From: Flexilinea sp.
Lineage (GTDB): Bacteria; Chloroflexota; Anaerolineae; Anaerolineales; Anaerolineaceae
Length of the DNA: 64,000 nucleotides
Reading direction: 5' to 3' (one strand)
Assembly: GCA_041859835.1 (NCBI GenBank)
Contig: JBFLFU010000003.1
Both the position numbers and the translations under genes were made by a program. This document shows, piece after piece, positions 49,691 through 59,338 of this stretch. The notes beneath the pieces were generated by a model. That model saw only the letters and a program-made list of their open reading frames with translations, was not told the DNA's origin and ran no database searches. Position 1 is the stretch's first letter; every line of letters starts with the position of its first letter.

Positions 49691-50908
49691 TTATTTTGCC
49701 TTTCTCCGGATCTGTGCGATCCGGTTTCTGAATTGTTCCGCTTTGGCCAGGCCGGACCATCTGCCGGTAGCCTCGTTTTCTTCAAGCAGCAGGATGCCTT
49801 TCTCCAGCAGCGCGATGGCCTGCTCCGGCTGCCCCAATTTCTCCTGCAGGCGGGCGGCTTCATAGCAGCTGAGAACGTCCCCGCTCGCTGCGAGCGCCTG
49901 ATAGACCCGCAATGATTCTTCCAGCGAACCGCGTTTGCGCAGTGTGGCGGCGGTCAGACGCCTTTCCGCGACTGAAAAAAGATTTTCGTCCAGGTAATGG
50001 GAGAGGTCCGCCTCCTCCGGGCTCAGCGATATGGCGGAGCGGTAAAATTCCGGAACGGACATGCGGTGCTCGTTGAGCGAATCGGGCTGATATAACCCCT
50101 TCCGGGTGATGCCGGAGAGGAAAAGCAGCAGCGCGGTCAGGCTCAGCACATCAATTTCATTGTGATAAGCGATCCCCTTCAGCCGATCCGCTTCCAGCGT
50201 GTTCAGGAATTCACGGTAGATCTCCGGCGCCATGAATCCGGGCACTTCGGCCTCTCCACGGCGGACTTTCAGAATTTCCTGCTCGATGGTCGCCAGGCGG
50301 CAGTTCGGCAGTGTCCGGCGCCAGAAACGCCGCGCGATCGGCAGAAAGTCGATATGATGGAGGCTGGCGCAGAAATCCGGGAAAAAGTGGAAATTGCCCC
50401 GACTGCGGATCATCGGGACGTCGAAGGATTTTCCGTTGTAGGTCAGAATGACCGGGAAACGGGCGAAAATGACCTCGATTTGATGGATAAAGGCTTTCTC
50501 GTATCCCAGATCCGGCAGAATGAGCTGATCGACGATATAGGCGTCGTCGGCGTAATATCCCATGCCGATCATGAAGATGAAAGCTGCCGCATCGCTGGTA
50601 AGACCGCTGGTCTCTGTATCCATCGCCAGCGTCTCTTCTTTTTTGATGTCGCTCCGTCCGATCAAGGCCCTGAAAAGGCCGGTGGGGGCCAATTCCTGAT
50701 CCATCCGGACACTGCCATGCGTATAGGTAAGCGGATAGCGGCGGCGATTGATAAAATAGGGACCGAAACGGTTTTCAGCGGTAAACCCTTCCGGAAAGGC
50801 CGCTTCCAGCCTACGAAAGACATCGCCGGTTTTTTGCGGCACAGCAGGTTTCTGCGGGAATCCCATCGTGACGCCCAACCGCTTTAGTTCGGAAAGAATA
50901 TCACTCAT
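49691..50908 (-). CDS. mrfB: MrfB/YprB-like DEDDh exonuclease (RNase H-like plus TPR)
   Basis: MDTETSGL, TYNGKSFD, HIDFL, YHNEIDVLSL; C-terminal TPR-like helices; overlaps the helicase stop. Confidence 0.8.
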   Translation of the reverse strand: MSDILSELKRLGVTMGFPQKPAVPQKTGDVFRRLEAAFPEGFTAENRFGPYFINRRRYPLTYTHGSVRMDQELAPTGLFRALIGRSDIKKEETLAMDTETSGLTSDAAAFIFMIGMGYYADDAYIVDQLILPDLGYEKAFIHQIEVIFARFPVILTYNGKSFDVPMIRSRGNFHFFPDFCASLHHIDFLPIARRFWRRTLPNCRLATIEQEILKVRRGEAEVPGFMAPEIYREFLNTLEADRLKGIAYHNEIDVLSLTALLLFLSGITRKGLYQPDSLNEHRMSVPEFYRSAISLSPEEADLSHYLDENLFSVAERRLTAATLRKRGSLEESLRVYQALAASGDVLSCYEAARLQEKLGQPEQAIALLEKGILLLEENEATGRWSGLAKAEQFRNRIAQIRRKAK

Positions 50909-53417
50909 AATGAAGGTTATTATAATCCGTCAGCAATCCATATCCTATCGCCAGCGCTTCCTGTTTGCCGCCGCTGCCGATCTCTCCGGCAGGACCGACG
51001 CAGCCCGGACAACCGTCCTCGCACTCACAGGAGTTGATCAGATCCAGCGTGGCCTGCAGAATGCGCTTGAATTGACGGAAAATGGCCTGTGAGAGTCCAA
51101 TTCCGCCCGGGATAGTTTCATAGATATAAATTGCGGATCGGCCTTCAAAATGCGGATCTTCCGGTGCGGGAAGCACATTCAGGTCGTTCCCGTCACATTC
51201 CAGGAAGAGCGTGGCAATCTGGTGAAAAGCGGAAGCAAATCCGGCCAGTCCGCTGCGCATTTTCACCGCCGCCTCAACCCGGTGATGACAATCCGGGCAA
51301 AGGGTGGTCAGGTTCTCCTCCCGATTCGCGTCCGCCGGGTTGGAGAAATTCCGGAAAGGAACGATGTGATGGACCTGCAAGGTCTGCACTGTTCCGGAAA
51401 TGCCGCAGAGCTGGCAGGCATTGTTATCCCGCCGGACAACGCTGCGGCGAATTTCCGGCCAGTCCCTGCCATAATCATTGGGGTCGTTGTGCCAATCGGA
51501 TTGTTCACGCAATTGATCCCGGAAATGCGTTTTCAACGCGATGATAAACGCTTTGGTATCCAGTACCACTTCCGGCAGATCGAGCGGAAACTGATCCAGA
51601 ATTTGGTGCGTGGTTTCATCCCGCTTGCGGTAGCCCGTTACCTGATCGGTAACCGTCACCGCAGCCGTCAGGATTTCGGCGTTCTCACCATCGGCCTTTT
51701 CCAGCACTTCATCCGGCGTAATGCCGGTTTGCCGGATGGCCTCCGTTGTGTAATGGGGACGGTATCGTTCCGCTGCGGCATAATTGTCGGTCAGGTTCAG
51801 TTCCCGGATGCGGTACGGCTCACCATTATGAAAGTAAATGGCGCCTTCATGAACCATCCAGTAACTTGAAGTGCGGTCCACTTCGCCGATGCGGGTTTTC
51901 GACCCATCCAGTGCGATGGTGAGGATGTCGATCCGCTCCAGACTGCTGTTTCGCAGTGAGACAGCACGCTGCGGCGAATCAGACTGAAACCAGAAATATT
52001 GCCCGCCGCTTTTCCGTGCGGCGCCGGAGGATACCAGGAAATCCAGCAGATCCCGCGTAGCTTCAACGGGCAGACTGCCATAGGCTTCGTTTTCAGAGAA
52101 AGGCGCTTCGAATAAAGCGCATTGCAGATGCTGGAAAAGGATCAGCAGGTTGTCCGGATCGATCAGCGCCGGTTCGACCGGCTGCTCCAGAATGAATTCC
52201 GGATGTTTCATCAGGTATTGGTCCACCGGATTCTGAGAAGCGACCAGGTAAAAAGCGGCATCCTGTTTGTTGCGGCCCGCCCGTCCCATGCGTTGGAAGG
52301 TCGAAGCGACGGAACCGGGATAACCGATCGAAATCACGCTGTCCATGCCGCCGATGTCCATGCCCAATTCGAGCGCATTGGTGGCGACGACGCAGCGGTT
52401 GGTGCCCTGTTTCAGCCCCTGTTCAATCGCGCGGCGTTCTTTCGGCAGATAGCCGGAGCGGTAGCCGTTGGCGTCCACACCAAAGTCGCGCAGGCGGCGG
52501 ACAGCGGTTTCAACCGATTGCCGTGATTGGGTGAAAACCAGCAGTTGATTCCGTTTTTTGAGGATATCCGCGGCCATTTTGGCCGTGGTATGAACAGCGC
52601 CGGCACGCAGATGCAGCGCCTCATCAACGATGGAGGGATTAATAAAGCGGACCGCGGTACGCCCGTTTCCGGAGGCGTCTTCCGCAATGGAAACGACGGG
52701 CTCCCCGATCAATTTTTCGGCCAGTGTCTTTGCGTTGGAAAGGGTGGCGGAACAAAGAATGTAGCGAGCCGGCGAAAGACCGGATGTGTAGCGGTTCAAA
52801 ATACGGTTTAAGCGCCGCAGCACATTGGCGATGTGCGAGCCGAAGATGCCGCGGTAGGTGTGCGTTTCGTCCAGTACGATGATTTTCAGGTTTTGCAGGA
52901 AGCGGTTCCAATTGGCGTGGTGCGGCAGAATTCCGACATGCAGCATATCCGGATTGGTCAGGATCACCCGTGCCCGGCTGCGGATGGCCGTGCGGCGGTA
53001 AGCGGGTGTATCGCCGTCATAAATGGCGATCTCCGCGGCTTTGTCGGGGATGAGCGCGGTCAGGCTGCGGTGCTGATCCTGTGTCAGCGCTTTGGTCGGA
53101 AAGAGCAGCAGCGCAGTGGCGGATGGATCCGAGCGCAGATTATCCAGAATCGGGACCTGATAACAGAGGCTTTTTCCGCTGGCAGTCCCGGTGGAGAGGA
53201 TGACATTCCTGCCATCAGCGATGGCCTGGAGCGCATCGAATTGGTGGCGGTAAAGAAAATGGATACTCTTTTGTTCCAGAATGGCGCGGATATCTTCAGG
53301 CAGCCAGGCCGGCAGCGGCACATATACCGCGTCCCTTTGCGGGATAACAGTGGAGAAGGCGATTTCCCCCAACGGCTGGAAATGCCTGGATTTTTCACCG
53401 GCTGTTTGTTCGCTCAT
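50901..53417 (-). CDS. mrfA: MrfA/YprA-like DEAD/DEAH helicase with DUF1998 and an inserted HNH domain
   Basis: GTASGKS, LFPTKALTQDQ, DETH, SAT, ELGMDIG, QRMGRAGR; YETIPGGIG and CECEDGCPGC; HNH insert at about aa 642-715. Confidence 0.85.
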   Translation of the reverse strand: MSEQTAGEKSRHFQPLGEIAFSTVIPQRDAVYVPLPAWLPEDIRAILEQKSIHFLYRHQFDALQAIADGRNVILSTGTASGKSLCYQVPILDNLRSDPSATALLLFPTKALTQDQHRSLTALIPDKAAEIAIYDGDTPAYRRTAIRSRARVILTNPDMLHVGILPHHANWNRFLQNLKIIVLDETHTYRGIFGSHIANVLRRLNRILNRYTSGLSPARYILCSATLSNAKTLAEKLIGEPVVSIAEDASGNGRTAVRFINPSIVDEALHLRAGAVHTTAKMAADILKKRNQLLVFTQSRQSVETAVRRLRDFGVDANGYRSGYLPKERRAIEQGLKQGTNRCVVATNALELGMDIGGMDSVISIGYPGSVASTFQRMGRAGRNKQDAAFYLVASQNPVDQYLMKHPEFILEQPVEPALIDPDNLLILFQHLQCALFEAPFSENEAYGSLPVEATRDLLDFLVSSGAARKSGGQYFWFQSDSPQRAVSLRNSSLERIDILTIALDGSKTRIGEVDRTSSYWMVHEGAIYFHNGEPYRIRELNLTDNYAAAERYRPHYTTEAIRQTGITPDEVLEKADGENAEILTAAVTVTDQVTGYRKRDETTHQILDQFPLDLPEVVLDTKAFIIALKTHFRDQLREQSDWHNDPNDYGRDWPEIRRSVVRRDNNACQLCGISGTVQTLQVHHIVPFRNFSNPADANREENLTTLCPDCHHRVEAAVKMRSGLAGFASAFHQIATLFLECDGNDLNVLPAPEDPHFEGRSAIYIYETIPGGIGLSQAIFRQFKRILQATLDLINSCECEDGCPGCVGPAGEIGSGGKQEALAIGYGLLTDYNNLHYE

Positions 53418-53423
53418 GATTGA

Positions 53424-53465
53424 ATTCTAATGCGAACGATGGAAAATTGGTGGAACTTATGTTCG
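53424..53465 (-). promoter_or_regulatory. LexA (DinR/Cheo-type) box and leaderless promoter of the mrfA operon
   Basis: GGAAC-TTAT-GTTCG at 53452-65 (minus strand CGAACATAAGTTCC); -10 TAGAAT (53429-24) lies 6 nt before the ATG, with no SD. Confidence 0.65.
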
Positions 53466-53602: not shown

Positions 53603-53647
53603 AAAGCAAGCCATGAATCCAGTGTGAGATCAATGGCTTGCTTTTTT
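53603..53647 (-). terminator. Hairpin after ftsZ
   Basis: AAAGCAAGCCAT...ATGGCTTGCTTT inverted repeat. Confidence 0.6.
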
Positions 53648-57055: not shown

Positions 57056-59338
57056 TCAGCTCAGAATCTCAATTTCCGGAACCAGGTCGATTCCGAAACG
57101 GGTCTTGACTTCGTTTTGTGCCAGATGAACCAGCGCCAGATAATCGGCGCTGGCGACACCGGGTTCGGTGATAATAGTGTTGCCGTGGTTCTCGCTGATA
57201 AACGCATGCCCGATCCGTTTTCCGCGCAGTCCGCAATCTGTAATCAGTTTTCCGGCATATTCATTGGGCGGGTTGCGGAAGACGGAGCCAAGGCTGCCTT
57301 TGCCTTCCGGATGAACCGTGCGACGTTTGGCGATGATTTCTTCCATCTTTTCATTCACTGAACATGGATCTCCGTTCCGCAATGAAAAGGTTGCGGAGAG
57401 AATGGTTCCGCGCAGCTCCTGCCGTTTGAATTTGCTTGAACGGTAGGAGAACCCCAGCGCGTCCTTCTCTAACGCGATCATTTCATGATTGTTCAGCAGG
57501 AACTTCACCGAGGCGATGACGGCTGCTGTTTCGGAGCCAAAGGCGCCGGCATTGCCATAAATCGCGCCGCCGAAGGTGCCCGGGATACCATAGGCCCATT
57601 CGTATCCCTCCAGACCGGCTTCCGCACAGGCCTTAACAACCGCGATCAGCGGGGTTCCGGAAGCGGCAGTGACGCGTGCGCCACCGGGAGTTTTCTCAAT
57701 GCATATATCATCCGCGCGATTCAAAATGGCAACCCCATCGAATCCGGCGTCACTGAACAATATGTTGGTCAGGCCGCCAAAAACGCGGAAATTCGCGTTT
57801 TTACTGTGATAATAACGCGCCATATCGGTCAGCGCTTCCGTGCTGTCCGCGATCAGCAGCTCTTTGGCAGGGCCGCCGCAGAGCGCTCTTGAATACGTGG
57901 ACAGTGGGACGTCCCGCCGGATTTTTTCAGCATACTTTTTCTGAAATTCGGCTCCGGCTTTCAATTCCGCGAGCGCAGCCGGACCGATTTTGTTGGCGTC
58001 TCCGGCGGATAATGTGATAACCACGTCGCCGGGCAGCATTTCTTTCCTGAGGATCTCCACCGCATGCGCATTGTCGGCGGCGAATATGGCCGCCGGATAA
58101 GCCGCGGTAAAGGCTGTTTTCAAATCTTCATTGCCGAAATCCTGTTGTTTTTCACGAGAAGCATAAATGTTCGTGACCAGTACCTGGTCCGCATCCGAAA
58201 AGGCGCTGCAGAATTCATTGAGCAGCGTTTTGGTCCGGCTGAACGTGTGCGGCTGCCACAGTGCCCAGATCCTTCCGGAAGGGAAAGCGTCGCGGGCGGC
58301 GGACAGGGTAGCTTTGATCTCGGTCGGATGGTGCGCATAGTCATCGATGATCGTGATGCCATTCCATTCCGCGATCTTCTCAAACCGGCGCGCAATGCCA
58401 TGAAAATTGGCGAATGCTGCGGCAGCCCGGGAGAGATCCAGCTCTTTAATTGCACAAATTGCCAGCGCTGCCAAGGCGTTGTAAATATTGTGCCTGCCGC
58501 TGACGGCCAGGCGGACATGGGCTGAACGGTCCATCCGGTTGTCCCGGAAATCGAATTCATAACAGCCATTAGCCATCAGGTTCAGGTTGACGGCCTGGAA
58601 GTCCGCCGGGGTGGTGAGTCCAAAGCGCAGCACCTGTCCTGAAGCAGCGGCGGTTTCAGCCAGCAGCGCTTGTTTGGGGTCATCCGCATTAAGTACTATC
58701 CAGCCCTGTGGCCGGGTGTTGCTCAGGAACTGCTTGAAGGCCGCCAGATAATCTGCTTCTGTGGGGTAGCAGTCCGGGTGATCGTGCTCGAACTTTGTCA
58801 CGACAGCGATCTCCGGGTGCAAACCGAGGAACATGCGATCATACTCATCCGCTTCGATTACGAACAATGGGCCGGTGCCGGCTGCGGCATTTTTCCCCAG
58901 ATCCCTGGGTGTGGAGCCGATAATGAAACCGGGGTTTTCCCCGAGGCTTTTCAGGATCCAGGCCAGCATGCTGGTCGTGGTTGTTTTCCCATGCGTACCG
59001 GCGATCGCGATGACTTCCCGTCCGGAAAGGATGCTGTCCAGAAAATCGACCCGCTTTTGGGTTGGGATGCCTTTTCTTTCCGCTTCCGTCAATTCCGGAT
59101 TATCTTTCCCGATGGCTGAAGAGTAGACGACCAGATCTGCGCCGGTGATATTTTCAGCCGTGTGACCGATATGGACGGGAATCCCCTGTTTCTCAAGCGT
59201 CAACGCCATTTCAGAAGCGGCGCGGTCCGATCCGCTGACAGAGACTCCCATCTCTTTCAGTGCCAGCGCAATCGCCGACATGCCGGTTCCGCCGATGCCG
59301 ATGATAAAAATCCGTTTTCCGATCAAATCTGCTCTCAT
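57056..59338 (-). CDS. murC-murB: Fused UDP-MurNAc-L-Ala ligase (MurC, N-terminal) and UDP-GlcNAc-enolpyruvate reductase (MurB, C-terminal)
   Basis: MurC: IGIGGTGMSAIA, AGTHGKTTT, EADEYD, DDYAHHPTEI. MurB: GIPGTFGGAIYGNAGA, FSYRSS, GSVFRNP, PEIEI. One continuous 760-aa ORF, junction near 57950. Confidence 0.9.
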   Translation of the reverse strand: MRADLIGKRIFIIGIGGTGMSAIALALKEMGVSVSGSDRAASEMALTLEKQGIPVHIGHTAENITGADLVVYSSAIGKDNPELTEAERKGIPTQKRVDFLDSILSGREVIAIAGTHGKTTTTSMLAWILKSLGENPGFIIGSTPRDLGKNAAAGTGPLFVIEADEYDRMFLGLHPEIAVVTKFEHDHPDCYPTEADYLAAFKQFLSNTRPQGWIVLNADDPKQALLAETAAASGQVLRFGLTTPADFQAVNLNLMANGCYEFDFRDNRMDRSAHVRLAVSGRHNIYNALAALAICAIKELDLSRAAAAFANFHGIARRFEKIAEWNGITIIDDYAHHPTEIKATLSAARDAFPSGRIWALWQPHTFSRTKTLLNEFCSAFSDADQVLVTNIYASREKQQDFGNEDLKTAFTAAYPAAIFAADNAHAVEILRKEMLPGDVVITLSAGDANKIGPAALAELKAGAEFQKKYAEKIRRDVPLSTYSRALCGGPAKELLIADSTEALTDMARYYHSKNANFRVFGGLTNILFSDAGFDGVAILNRADDICIEKTPGGARVTAASGTPLIAVVKACAEAGLEGYEWAYGIPGTFGGAIYGNAGAFGSETAAVIASVKFLLNNHEMIALEKDALGFSYRSSKFKRQELRGTILSATFSLRNGDPCSVNEKMEEIIAKRRTVHPEGKGSLGSVFRNPPNEYAGKLITDCGLRGKRIGHAFISENHGNTIITEPGVASADYLALVHLAQNEVKTRFGIDLVPEIEILS

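What the first reader, a model, noticed from the sequence alone, without database searches (positions are those of the whole stretch)
51270..51500. HNH endonuclease domain embedded in an MrfA/DUF1998 helicase: a possible self-contained incision-unwinding-resection repair system
Seen: about aa 642-715 read WHNDPNDYGRDWPEIRRSVVRRDNNACQLCG...LQVHHIVPF...ANREENLTTLCPDCHHRVE, with two CxxC pairs and complete H-N-H residues, in frame between the helicase core and an intact CxCxxxCxxC DUF1998 motif (51000-51029), and with no intein splice motifs. The next gene is an intact DEDDh MrfB-like exonuclease. Established: Bacillus MrfAB is a UvrABC-independent mitomycin C repair pathway of a helicase and an exonuclease; as I recall its incision nuclease is unidentified. 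Inference: here the nicking activity is built into the helicase.
Basis: partly seen in the sequence, partly recalled or inferred. Interest (0 to 1): 0.85.

Follow-up and report, generated by a model that had tools for sequence, protein, structure and literature searches.

The report
HNH nuclease built into MrfA helicase
A DNA-repair helicase of the MrfA family in this Anaerolineae (Chloroflexota) bacterium carries an intact HNH DNA-cutting domain inserted in its zinc-binding tail. The insert is kept in at least 555 related species and has not been described. It could be the cutting activity that published models of the MrfA/MrfB repair pathway lack.

Summary
Window 50901-53417 (-) encodes an 838-aa MrfA/YprA-type SF2 helicase, matching B. 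subtilis MrfA (PDB 6ZNP) at E 3e-156 with a model TM-score of 0.82. An ~88-aa insert (aa 635-722, nt 51252-51515) replaces the ~12-aa linker found at the CON/MZB junction in other MrfA homologues.

The insert is a true HNH domain: PF01844 above threshold, a ββα-metal fold, and closest to the phage GVE2 HNH nickase. The catalytic residues H684, N702 and H711 and the zinc ligands C668, C671, C707 and C710 are invariant in 119 of 119 homologues.

It is not patchy, not an intein and not mobile. At least 555 species genomes carry it, essentially all Anaerolineae including Caldilineaceae. It co-diverges with the helicase core (Mantel r 0.90) and is as constrained as the RecA domains. The closest HNH-less relatives sampled are named for other phyla.

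An MrfB-like DEDDh exonuclease follows with an 8-nt overlap. This pairing holds in only 46 of 74 related loci.

The architecture was absent from the searched literature, including a 52,000-protein YprA family survey. A helicase-coupled nicking role in repair is plausible but inferred. This is a new variant of a known kind, of moderate to high interest.

The parts
50901..53417 (-). mrfA-HNH gene: 838-aa MrfA/YprA-family SF2 helicase with an internal HNH nuclease domain
   Evidence: Translation. Pfam domains. E 3e-156 to B. subtilis MrfA 6ZNP. AF2 model pLDDT 86.6, pTM 0.84. Foldseek TM 0.82 to 6znp_A.
52728..53249 (-). RecA1 domain (aa 57-230) with Walker A TASGKS and motif II DETH (aa 183-186)
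   Evidence: PF00270 E 3.3e-30. G81, K82, D183, E184 and H186 are invariant.
52269..52568 (-). RecA2 / Helicase_C domain (aa 284-383)
   Evidence: PF00271 E 2.9e-17.
51948..52163 (-). Winged-helix domain (aa 419-490)
   Evidence: PF22982 WHD_HRQ1 E 1.9e-7.
51516..51947 (-). OB fold and CON connector β-sheet (aa 491-634)
   Evidence: Aligns to MrfA residues up to 638. Long antiparallel strands E556-576, E580-600 and E616-628 in the AF2 model. Domain limits follow Roske et al., PMC7797055.
51252..51515 (-). The insert (aa 635-722). It has a clade-specific docking linker (W642, N647, Y649, G650, W653) followed by an HNH ββα-metal nuclease. Predicted general base H684, with H683, N702 and H711. 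Zinc site C668, C671, C707, C710.
   Evidence: PF01844 38.2 bits. Gap-free, with catalytic and zinc residues invariant in 119 of 119 homologues. The profile matches GVE2 HNH 5h0m at E 4e-9, where H93, N109 and H118 are needed for nicking. AF2 model of the insert alone has pLDDT 81, and all top Foldseek hits are HNH nucleases.
50982..51251 (-). MZB/DUF1998 zinc-binding domain (aa 723-812) with C797-x-C799-xxx-C803-xx-C806
   Evidence: PF09369 E 2.2e-20. Aligns to MrfA 647-734. The cysteines are invariant.
49691..50908 (-). mrfB-like gene: 405-aa DEDDh 3'-5' exonuclease (exonuclease core aa 96-260, nt 50129-50623) with a TPR-like C-terminus. Its ATG overlaps the mrfA stop by 8 nt (ATGAGTGA).
   Evidence: PF13482 E 1.3e-30, with weak TPR hits at 347-377 that fall below threshold. 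E 1.7e-30 to MrfB 8UN9, with the DTET, NGKSFD and HNEIDV motifs aligned. Overlap read directly from the sequence.
53604..53643 (-). Stable hairpin followed by a U-rich tract just after the ftsZ stop. It is probably the ftsZ terminator, so mrfA-mrfB would be a separate transcription unit.
   Evidence: RNA fold -23.1 kcal/mol, z -5.9, 0 of 200 shuffles as stable. Sequence.

Best explanation
This is the Anaerolineae orthologue of the DNA-repair helicase MrfA (YprA family). A phage-type, zinc-stabilised HNH nuclease has become a permanent domain of it, inserted at the junction of the CON connector and the MZB zinc domain.

Shown:
- The helicase core, WH, OB-CON and MZB modules are intact and MrfA-like.
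- The HNH has all its catalytic and zinc-binding residues.
- The HNH is as conserved as the ATPase core and has co-diverged with it across a whole bacterial class.
- In this genome the gene is probably translationally coupled to an MrfB-type DEDDh 3'-5' exonuclease.

Inferred:
- The protein is a helicase-nuclease. ATP-driven 3'-5' translocation on one strand, as in B. subtilis MrfA, is coupled to single-strand nicking by the HNH. The nearest characterised relatives of this HNH (GVE2 HNH, Gme HNH, the IscB/Cas9 HNH and the group II intron En domain) cut one strand.
- In B. subtilis MrfA, CON and MZB help form the funnel through which the tracked strand enters, and the displaced strand is proposed to leave along MZB. 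The HNH would therefore sit at the leading edge of the motor, next to the single-strand/duplex junction.
- The likeliest role is to make the strand break that gives the helicase its loading site, gives MrfB a 3' end, or both. The break might be triggered when translocation stalls at a lesion. That would be a UvrABC-independent excision or processing reaction that needs no separate endonuclease.
For: - Architecture and MrfA identity.
- HNH is genuine: Pfam above its threshold. The profile matches the GVE2 HNH nickase at 4e-9, and also IscB, a group II intron maturase and McrA. The AF2 and Foldseek top hits are all HNH nucleases. H684, N702 and H711 align with GVE2 H93, N109 and H118, whose mutation reduces or abolishes nicking.
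- Constraint: the insert is gap-free with 22 of 88 positions invariant. Its mean entropy is 1.40, against 1.27 and 1.24 for RecA1 and RecA2 and 1.79 for CON. dN/dS is 0.105, against 0.061 for RecA and 0.097 for the other accessory domains.
- Vertical inheritance: Mantel r 0.90 between insert and core distances, with 0 of 999 permutations as high.
- Breadth: all 120 top homologues carry PF01844. At least 555 species genomes carry it, almost all labelled Anaerolineae, and Caldilineaceae are included.
- Comparison group: most other MrfA representatives have a linker of about 12 aa at the same site, and a few have inserts of 31-45 aa that are not HNH. The closest HNH-less relatives sampled that carry a name are from other phyla.
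- Repair rather than defence context: the gene sits at the tail of the dcw cluster here, and next to DnaK, ClpB-like, MFS and similar genes elsewhere. PADLOC gives only generic helicase hits, and MrfB gives none.
- MrfB partner.
- Literature: published MrfAB models lack an incision enzyme and invoke unknown partners. The DNA funnel is formed by RecA2, OB, CON and MZB, and the displaced strand is proposed to run along MZB. An AF-Multimer model places MrfB at the 3' end of the bound DNA, at the opposite end from the funnel.
Against: - No biochemical data exist for any member. Nuclease activity, strand choice and ATP coupling are all untested.
- MrfB is not adjacent in 25 of 74 loci, so the nuclease-helicase-exonuclease trio is not an obligate unit.
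- One lineage representative (P0152) has a degenerate HNH (HVYH, CGACY), so the helicase can persist without HNH catalysis.
- My NJ tree did not recover the HNH-bearing proteins as a single clade.
- A LexA-like box upstream of mrfA is not conserved in relatives, so there is no regulatory evidence for damage induction.
- B. subtilis MrfAB works without a built-in HNH, so a built-in nuclease is not a general requirement of the pathway.
Confidence: 0.6

Rival explanations
1. The protein processes forks or recombination intermediates and does not do excision repair. The helicase-HNH would act like human ZRANB3 or archaeal Hef. It would translocate on stalled forks, D-loops, R-loops or flaps and cleave a strand at the branch point, with MrfB as an optional accessory.
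For: MrfB is absent from 25 of 74 loci, so the helicase-HNH can stand alone. The ZRANB3 HNH is a weak match to the insert profile, E 0.0085. T4 endonuclease VII, which cleaves branched DNA, is among the structural neighbours. MrfA homologues are reported to have species-specific functions.
Against: The closest HNH relatives are simple nickases and not branch-specific enzymes. The best-characterised homologue pair works in excision of mitomycin C mono-adducts. MrfB is adjacent in most loci.
Confidence: 0.2
2. It is an anti-phage or anti-plasmid helicase-nuclease effector, like Cas3 or DruE, and not a housekeeping repair enzyme. YprA-family helicases are used repeatedly in defence systems (DISARM, Druantia, Dpd, ARMADA).
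For: Half of the YprA family tree is defence-associated and often carries fused nucleases. PADLOC gives partial hits to BrxH, DruE, DrmA and DpdF. The HNH resembles free-standing phage HNH genes at 44% identity.
Against: The protein is far closer to MrfA (525 bits over the full length) than to any defence helicase, where the hits cover only the ATPase core. It lacks the BrxA-like and zinc-binding inserts typical of the defence branch. Its neighbours are core housekeeping genes and not defence islands. The tight co-divergence of insert and helicase core fits a stable chromosomal gene better than a horizontally mobile defence gene. MrfB has no PADLOC hit.
Confidence: 0.12
3. The HNH has been co-opted as a non-catalytic zinc-binding or DNA-binding module. 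It would stabilise the canopy or grip DNA, like the extra zinc-binding motifs inserted into the OB-CON-DUF1998 region of defence YprA helicases.
For: Small zinc-binding inserts in this region are common in the family. One lineage (P0152) has lost the catalytic histidines but keeps the insert.
Against: The general-base His, the Asn and the metal-binding His are invariant in 119 of 119 close homologues and are kept in nearly all distant ones, together with the Cys4 site. A purely structural role would not constrain H684, N702 and H711.
Confidence: 0.08
4. It is a selfish element: an in-frame homing HNH endonuclease, or an intein remnant, that is tolerated in a surface loop.
For: HNH domains are typical homing endonucleases. 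The closest stand-alone relatives are phage HNH genes. In-gene HNH insertion elements exist in phages. This is a plausible origin for the insert.
Against: There are no intein motifs or Hint domain, and at 88 aa the insert is too small. It is present in every close orthologue and never degenerate among the 119. It co-diverges with its host, r 0.90. Purifying selection on it equals that on the other domains.
Confidence: 0.03

Closest known systems
Bacillus subtilis MrfA (YprA), a DUF1998/MZB SF2 3'-5' DNA helicase of the MrfAB mitomycin C repair pathway (PDB 6ZNP, 6ZNQ, 6ZNS)
   Same: It shares the NTR-RecA1-RecA2-WH-OB-CON-MZB order. Sequence match is E 3e-156 at 33-40% identity, and Foldseek TM is 0.82 to the DNA-bound state. 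It has the Cys4 zinc motif and an adjacent MrfB-type exonuclease gene.
   Different: B. subtilis MrfA has an ~8-aa linker (residues 639-646) where this protein has an 88-aa HNH nuclease domain. No nuclease activity is known for MrfA itself.
Stand-alone phage-type zinc-finger HNH nicking endonucleases (Geobacillus virus E2 HNH, PDB 5H0M; Gme HNH, 4H9D)
   Same: This is the best sequence and structure match to the insert (E 4e-9, TM 0.63, 31% identity). It shares the W..R...RD..CxxC N-terminal helix, the (D/H)H-N-H catalytic residues and the [CxxC]2 zinc site.
   Different: Those are free-standing proteins of about 100-130 aa that work with phage terminases. Here the domain is embedded in a helicase and is preceded by a conserved clade-specific linker (W642, N647, Y649, G650).
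Human ZRANB3 (SNF2 translocase with a C-terminal HNH, a structure-specific ATP-dependent endonuclease)
   Same: A DNA motor and an HNH nuclease in one polypeptide for genome maintenance. The HNH is a weak profile match, E 0.0085. The enzymology is from my own knowledge.
   Different: The motor family differs (SNF2 dsDNA translocase against an MrfA-type ssDNA helicase). The HNH is C-terminal and not inserted. The fusions are independent events.
Other helicase-nuclease fusions: Cas3 (HD plus SF2), archaeal Hef (SF2 plus XPF-type nuclease), DinG with an N-terminal exonuclease, Druantia DruE, and MrfA-MrfB fusion proteins
   Same: They follow the same design principle of coupling unwinding to cleavage. 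DruE and the MrfA-MrfB fusions belong to the same YprA family.
   Different: The nuclease fold and its position differ: HD, XPF, DEDD or PD-(D/E)xK-type domains at a terminus. None has an HNH inserted at the CON/MZB junction.
UvrABC nucleotide excision repair
   Same: The proposed logic is analogous: a translocase or helicase that verifies or stalls at damage, plus strand incision, plus removal of the damaged strand.
   Different: The proteins are unrelated. In UvrABC, incision is by the GIY-YIG and RNase H-like/Endo V-like domains of UvrC, which is a separate protein.

Membership tests
MrfA/YprA (DUF1998) SF2 helicases, repair branch | SF2 RecA1 and RecA2 core with Walker A and a DExH motif II | tested here: met
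   PF00270 E 3.3e-30 and PF00271 E 2.9e-17. TASGKS and DETH are present, with G81, K82, D183, E184 and H186 invariant.
MrfA/YprA (DUF1998) SF2 helicases, repair branch | C-terminal MZB/DUF1998 domain with the four-cysteine zinc motif | tested here: met
   PF09369 E 2.2e-20. C797, C799, C803 and C806 are invariant.
MrfA/YprA (DUF1998) SF2 helicases, repair branch | WH-OB-CON canopy architecture as in the MrfA crystal structures | tested here: met
   WHD_HRQ1 hit. The AF2 model matches 6znp_A at TMt 0.82 over 836 columns.
MrfA/YprA (DUF1998) SF2 helicases, repair branch | Score above NCBIfam's curated threshold for the nearest equivalog model (TIGR03817) | tested here: not met
   630 bits against a cut-off of 874, matched in two stretches split by the insert. 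That model is a hypothetical equivalog, and there is no curated MrfA equivalog in the library.
MrfA/YprA (DUF1998) SF2 helicases, repair branch | 3'-5' DNA helicase activity and a role in mitomycin C or other damage repair | not testable with these tools
   This needs biochemistry and genetics.
MrfA/YprA (DUF1998) SF2 helicases, repair branch | Partner MrfB exonuclease gene adjacent | tested here: met
   It is adjacent, with an 8-nt overlap, in the window. Among relatives it is adjacent in 46 of 74 loci.
HNH endonucleases (PF01844, ββα-metal fold) | Profile match above the Pfam gathering score | tested here: met
   38.2 bits against 21.4. HNH_2 also matches, 25.2 against 21.
HNH endonucleases (PF01844, ββα-metal fold) | Catalytic His (general base), Asn and metal-binding His are present | tested here: met
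   H684, N702 and H711 align with GVE2 H93, N109 and H118. They are invariant in 119 of 119 homologues.
HNH endonucleases (PF01844, ββα-metal fold) | [CxxC]2 structural zinc site of the zinc-finger HNH subclass | tested here: met
   C668, C671, C707 and C710 are conserved (C710 in 99% of 119 homologues, the other three in all).
HNH endonucleases (PF01844, ββα-metal fold) | ββα fold | tested here: met
   AF2 predicts strands at 681-684 and 703-706 and a helix at 708-717. The model of the insert alone gives HNH nucleases as its top Foldseek hits.
HNH endonucleases (PF01844, ββα-metal fold) | Metal-dependent DNA cleavage | not testable with these tools
   This needs an enzyme assay.
Inteins or homing-endonuclease insertions | Hint splicing domain, an N-terminal Cys/Ser, a C-terminal His-Asn followed by Cys/Ser/Thr, and patchy distribution | tested here: not met
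   No Hint or intein Pfam hit. The junctions read ...FRD|QLRE... and ...KMRS|GLAG.... The insert is 88 aa. It is present in all close orthologues and co-diverges with the host protein.
MrfB DEDDh exonuclease (neighbouring gene) | DnaQ-like core with DEDDh residues, plus a C-terminal TPR domain | tested here: met
   PF13482 E 1.3e-30. Match to 8UN9 at E 1.7e-30, with D97, E99, D163, H249 and D253 aligned to the B. subtilis motifs. The TPR is only weakly detected, with TPR_8 and TPR_2 below their thresholds, so that sub-feature is inconclusive.
YprA-family defence systems (DISARM, Druantia, Dpd, ARMADA, BRIGADE, TALON) | Conserved defence operon partners and defence-type domain inserts in the helicase | tested here: not met
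   PADLOC hits cover only the ATPase core, and there is no hit for the neighbouring gene. The neighbours are dcw and other housekeeping genes.

The most novel reading that the evidence does not exclude
HNH-MrfA is a self-sufficient damage-processing machine. The helicase stalls at a bulky adduct on the tracked strand, and the HNH, sitting at the DNA entry funnel, then nicks that strand. Together with MrfB bound at the 3' exit, this would complete a two-protein, UvrABC-independent nucleotide excision pathway. It would thereby show what kind of activity (a nickase) supplies the missing incision step of MrfAB repair in other bacteria.
Probability: 0.25. Interest if true: 0.8.

Novelty: new variant of a known kind. 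Interest (0 to 1): 0.6.

Why it matters
MrfAB is a recently discovered excision-repair route that does not depend on UvrABC. Its published models go from lesion recognition straight to unwinding and exonucleolytic removal. They name no enzyme that breaks the strand, and the authors invoke unknown partners.

A whole bacterial class has kept a catalytically intact nickase wired into the helicase for a very long time. That is a natural experiment pointing to where and when a cut may be needed, namely at the leading edge of the motor. It gives a directly testable system, because Flexilinea flocculi and Anaerolinea thermophila are cultured.

It also adds a compact helicase-HNH architecture, about 840 aa, to the known helicase-nuclease machines such as Cas3, Hef, ZRANB3 and DruE. 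Finally, it is a clade-wide trait, and possibly a clade marker, of Anaerolineae that a 52,000-protein survey of the family did not report.

Tried and rejected
- **Intein or homing element:** rejected. There is no Hint domain and no splice junctions, the insert is only 88 aa, it is universally present in orthologues, and it co-diverges with the helicase.
- **SOS regulation:** a Cheo/LexA-like box, CGAACATAAGTTCC, lies 36-48 nt upstream of the mrfA ATG and is the only GAAC-N4-GTTC in the window. None of 68 related loci has one upstream of mrfA. I treat it as chance or lineage-specific and do not use it as evidence.
- **Conserved ftsZ-mrfA linkage:** tblastn found no FtsZ in any of the 80 related loci, which carry up to about 4 kb upstream of mrfA, so I found no sign that the dcw adjacency is shared.
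- **Sigma-70 promoter scan of the operon region:** it found nothing.
- **Monophyly of HNH-bearing MrfA:** an NJ tree of 136 representatives placed them in three or four neighbouring groups interleaved with HNH-less groups on long, star-like branches. It is not resolved, so a single origin is likely but unproven.
- **Naming the nearest HNH-less representatives by cluster look-up:** this returned no names. A homologue search from P0146 then showed other phyla.
- **Haloarchaeal plasmid helicases:** they aligned over 96% of the query and looked like possible HNH carriers, but Pfam and direct reading show no HNH.
- **L029 as a possible MrfA-MrfB fusion (1438-aa open frame):** rejected. It is only a stop-poor upstream frame in a high-GC contig.
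- **dN/dS beyond the closest relative:** synonymous sites are saturated.
- **3D geometry of the HNH relative to the DNA path:** I could not do this, because model coordinates are not exposed.
Full report
**1. Observation**

The minus-strand ORF 50901-53417 encodes 838 aa. This stretch maps to nt 51273-51494, and the CECEDGCPGC motif (aa 797-806) maps to nt 51000-51029.

Pfam gives these domains:

| Domain | Residues | Score |
|---|---|---|
| DEAD | 57-230 | E 3.3e-30 |
| Helicase_C | 284-383 | E 2.9e-17 |
| WHD_HRQ1 | 419-490 | E 1.9e-7 |
| HNH PF01844 | 668-713 | 38.2 bits (cut-off 21.4) |
| MZB/DUF1998 | 728-807 | E 2.2e-20 |

The best solved relative is B. subtilis MrfA/YprA (6ZNP), E 3e-156. 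Query 25-634 aligns with MrfA 27-638, and query 723-811 aligns with MrfA 647-734. So about 88 residues (635-722, nt 51252-51515) stand where MrfA has about 8.

By the domain limits of Roske et al. (CON 557-630, MZB 631-749), the insertion lies just inside the start of MZB, next to CON. No intein or Hint family was detected. The junction residues are not splice residues, and 88 aa is too short for an intein.

**2. The neighbourhood**

The next gene (49691-50908, -) starts 8 nt before the mrfA stop, reading ATGAGTGA. It is an MrfB-type DEDDh exonuclease:
- RNase_H_2 at E 1.3e-30.
- E 1.7e-30 to the B. subtilis MrfB exonuclease core 8UN9, with the DTET, NGKSFD and HNEIDV motifs aligned.
- Weak TPR hits at the C-terminus, where B. 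subtilis MrfB has its TPR domain.

Upstream on the same strand lies a complete dcw cluster: mraY, murD, ftsW, murG, a murC-murB fusion, ftsQ, ftsA and ftsZ. A very stable hairpin with a U-rich tail follows ftsZ (-23 kcal/mol, z -5.9). So mrfA-mrfB is probably its own transcription unit. Downstream are a short-chain dehydrogenase and a convergent ABC transporter. Nothing here resembles a defence island. PADLOC gives only ATPase-core matches for the helicase and nothing for MrfB.

**3. Is the HNH real and functional-looking?**

A profile of the insert finds these solved structures:
- the phage GVE2 HNH nicking endonuclease 5H0M, E 4e-9
- an IscB HNH, E 1e-6
- group II intron maturase En domains
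- McrA
- weakly, the ZRANB3 HNH, E 0.0085

In the alignment, VHH(684), EN(702)L and CH(711) correspond to GVE2 DH93, DN109L and CH118. Mutation of those GVE2 residues abolishes or reduces nicking.

The full-length AF2 model is confident (pLDDT 86.6, pTM 0.84). In the insert it predicts two strands (681-684, 703-706) and a helix (708-717), which is the ββα-metal arrangement. Its best PDB match is DNA-bound MrfA, TM 0.82. A model of the insert alone has pLDDT 81. Its top Foldseek matches are HNH nucleases, including GVE2 HNH, Cap5, Cas9 HNH, the Gme HNH nickase, T4 endonuclease VII and Cas5-HNH.

**4.

All 120 best homologues at 90% clustering, running from 100% down to 45% identity, carry PF01844. 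Where named, they are Flexilinea, Anaerolineae, Anaerolineales or Chloroflexota.

In an alignment of 119 near-full-length homologues the insert has no gaps. The following residues are invariant, apart from C710, which is conserved in 99%:
- zinc and catalytic residues: C668, C671, H683, H684, P687, N702, C707, C710, H711, E715
- upstream residues: W642, N647, Y649, G650, W653, R663, D664

| Region | Mean column entropy | dN/dS vs closest relative L001 |
|---|---|---|
| Insert | 1.40 | 0.105 |
| RecA1 / RecA2 | 1.27 / 1.24 | 0.061 |
| CON | 1.79 | not computed separately |
| Other accessory domains | not pooled | 0.097 |

For the dN/dS figures, dS is close to saturation.

Pairwise distances in the insert track those in the RecA core, Mantel r 0.90, with 0 of 999 permutations reaching that value.

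It gave 555 confirmed loci, and nearly all of the best 80 are labelled Anaerolineae. They include the isolate Flexilinea flocculi TC1, a MAG assigned to Anaerolinea thermophila, and Brevefilum, Leptolinea, Pelolinea, Longilinea and Villigracilis.

A search of 1.84 billion cluster representatives shows a sharp split:
- About 40 of the best 150 representatives carry an insert of 85-103 aa, or 117 aa in the frameshifted P0155, with the HNH motif.
- Most of the others have a linker of about 12 aa at the same site, and a few have non-HNH inserts of 31-45 aa.

A longer-loop variant of the HNH includes Caldilineaceae. The closest HNH-less lineage sampled (P0146) has relatives named for candidate division CSSED10-310, Acidobacteriota, Dormibacteraeota and Methylomirabilota. 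Of its 120 relatives, none carries an HNH, and none of the roughly dozen with an organism name is Anaerolineae.

So the insert is neither patchy nor degenerate, and it is not mobile. It behaves as a fixed domain of the Anaerolineae orthologue. Three caveats remain:
- An NJ tree did not resolve HNH-bearing sequences as one clade.
- One representative (P0152) has lost the catalytic histidines.
- A few MAGs carry non-Chloroflexota labels. The 'Gemmatimonas' one is 67-70% identical to loci labelled Anaerolineales or Anaerolineae, so mislabelling or mis-binning is likely for it. The 'Trueperaceae' pair clusters with unnamed MAGs and is unresolved.

**5. Link to MrfB**

A profile search of the 80 loci finds MrfB immediately downstream in 46 of the 74 loci with enough flanking sequence. 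It lies a gene or two away in 3 more and is absent from the locus in 25. In those 25, the neighbours include DnaK, a ClpB-like ATPase, MFS transporters, an aminotransferase and a radical-SAM enzyme. The pairing is therefore frequent but not obligatory. I could not test whether MrfB is encoded elsewhere in those genomes.

**6. Mechanism**

The following is established from the literature:
- B. subtilis MrfA is described as a 3'-5' DNA helicase, following Roske et al..
- Its DNA enters through a funnel formed by RecA2, OB, CON and MZB, and the displaced strand is proposed to leave between MZB and RecA2.
- MrfB is a 3'-5' DEDDh exonuclease. An AlphaFold-Multimer model puts it at the MrfA WH domain, near the 3' end of the bound DNA.
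- The published pathway model contains no incision enzyme, and the authors mention unidentified partners or recruitment factors.

The following is my inference. An HNH at the CON/MZB junction would sit at the front of the motor, at or near the single-strand/duplex junction. MrfB would sit at the rear. The nearest characterised HNH relatives cut one strand. The simplest reading is therefore a helicase-coupled nickase. It would create the break needed for loading and for MrfB entry, or cut the tracked strand when the motor stalls at a lesion.

Which strand is cut, whether cutting depends on ATP, and which lesions are targeted all remain unknown. Mitomycin C specificity should not be assumed, because MrfAB function is reported to be species-specific.

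**7. Rivals**

- *Fork or branch processing, like ZRANB3 or Hef.* It fits the loci without MrfB and cannot be separated from excision repair by sequence alone.
- *Defence effector.* The MrfA-like full-length similarity, the housekeeping context and the vertical inheritance argue against it.
- *Non-catalytic zinc module.* The invariance of H684, N702 and H711 argues against it.
- *Selfish element.* It is rejected as a present-day state but is a plausible origin. The closest stand-alone relatives are phage HNH genes at about 44% identity.

**8. Known or new?**

Full-text searches gave the following:
- MrfA with HNH, and DUF1998 with HNH, returned only papers on defence systems or unrelated proteins.
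- HNH with helicase and Anaerolineae returned nothing.

The domain combination is visible in precomputed Pfam annotations, so it is 'in the databases'. I found no description or characterisation of it. I rate it a new variant of a known kind, an MrfA-family helicase that has become a helicase-nuclease.

**9. Verdict**

- I am highly confident (about 0.9) that this is a fixed, selectively maintained and catalytically competent-looking HNH domain in the Anaerolineae MrfA orthologue.
- I am moderately confident (0.6) that it works as a helicase-coupled nickase in DNA repair or processing.
- I put about 0.25 on the specific self-contained incision-unwinding-resection model.
- Interest is 0.6.

Noticed in passing
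window 57056-59338 (-): A single 760-aa ORF fuses MurC (Mur ligase N, M and C domains, aa 10-446) to MurB (FAD_binding_4 and MurB_C, aa 495-759). It lies inside an otherwise standard dcw cluster: mraY, murD, ftsW, murG, murC/B, ftsQ, ftsA, ftsZ.
   Followed up: no
window 53452-53465: A CGAACATAAGTTCC sequence lies 36-48 nt upstream of the mrfA start. It matches the Gram-positive LexA 'Cheo box' in 13 of 14 positions and is the only GAAC-N4-GTTC in the 64-kb window. None of 68 related loci has such a box upstream of mrfA, so it is probably chance or lineage-specific.
   Followed up: yes
window 53604-53643 (-): A strong hairpin (-23 kcal/mol, z -5.9) with a U-rich tail lies directly after the ftsZ stop codon. 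It is probably the terminator of the dcw operon. The built-in terminator scan missed it because of its long loop.
   Followed up: partly
window about 50000 onwards, compared with 1-50000: G+C content steps up from about 0.46-0.52 to about 0.54-0.56 at the point where the minus-strand block mrfB, mrfA and the dcw cluster begins.
   Followed up: no
L081 (Haloarcula litorea plasmid NZ_CP119781.1) 2439-6466, and about 15 other haloarchaeal plasmids: Haloarchaeal plasmids carry a gene pair in the reverse order. The first gene is an MrfB-like exonuclease with an extra helix-hairpin-helix domain. The second is an 855-aa MrfA-like DUF1998 helicase without an HNH. A second DEAD/DEAH helicase lies next to them, close to ParA and an integrase.
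   Followed up: partly
proteins P0152, P0129/P0139 and P0136/P0223 (representatives): The HNH insert comes in at least three loop-length variants between the HH strand and the catalytic Asn: a short form, a form with FGYxPGxNE added (which includes Caldilineaceae), and a longer 'FRAYVANPALR...' form. One representative, P0152, has a degenerate active site (HVYH, CGACY), suggesting inactivation in one lineage.
   Followed up: partly
L029, L054, L034, L061: Four HNH-MrfA loci come from MAGs labelled Trueperaceae, Gemmatimonas or Latescibacterota. The Gemmatimonas-labelled one is 67-70% identical to loci labelled Anaerolineales or Anaerolineae. The 374-aa fragment from the Latescibacterota-labelled locus is 63-65% identical to such loci and 68% to the Gemmatimonas-labelled one. 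Mislabelling or mis-binning is likely for both. The Trueperaceae-labelled pair clusters with unnamed MAGs and remains unresolved.
   Followed up: partly
L050, L057, L067, L074 downstream of mrfA: In several Anaerolineales loci that lack an adjacent MrfB, the gene directly downstream of HNH-mrfA is dnaK in the two scanned (Hsp70). L057 and L074 have an ORF of the same size in the same place.
   Followed up: no
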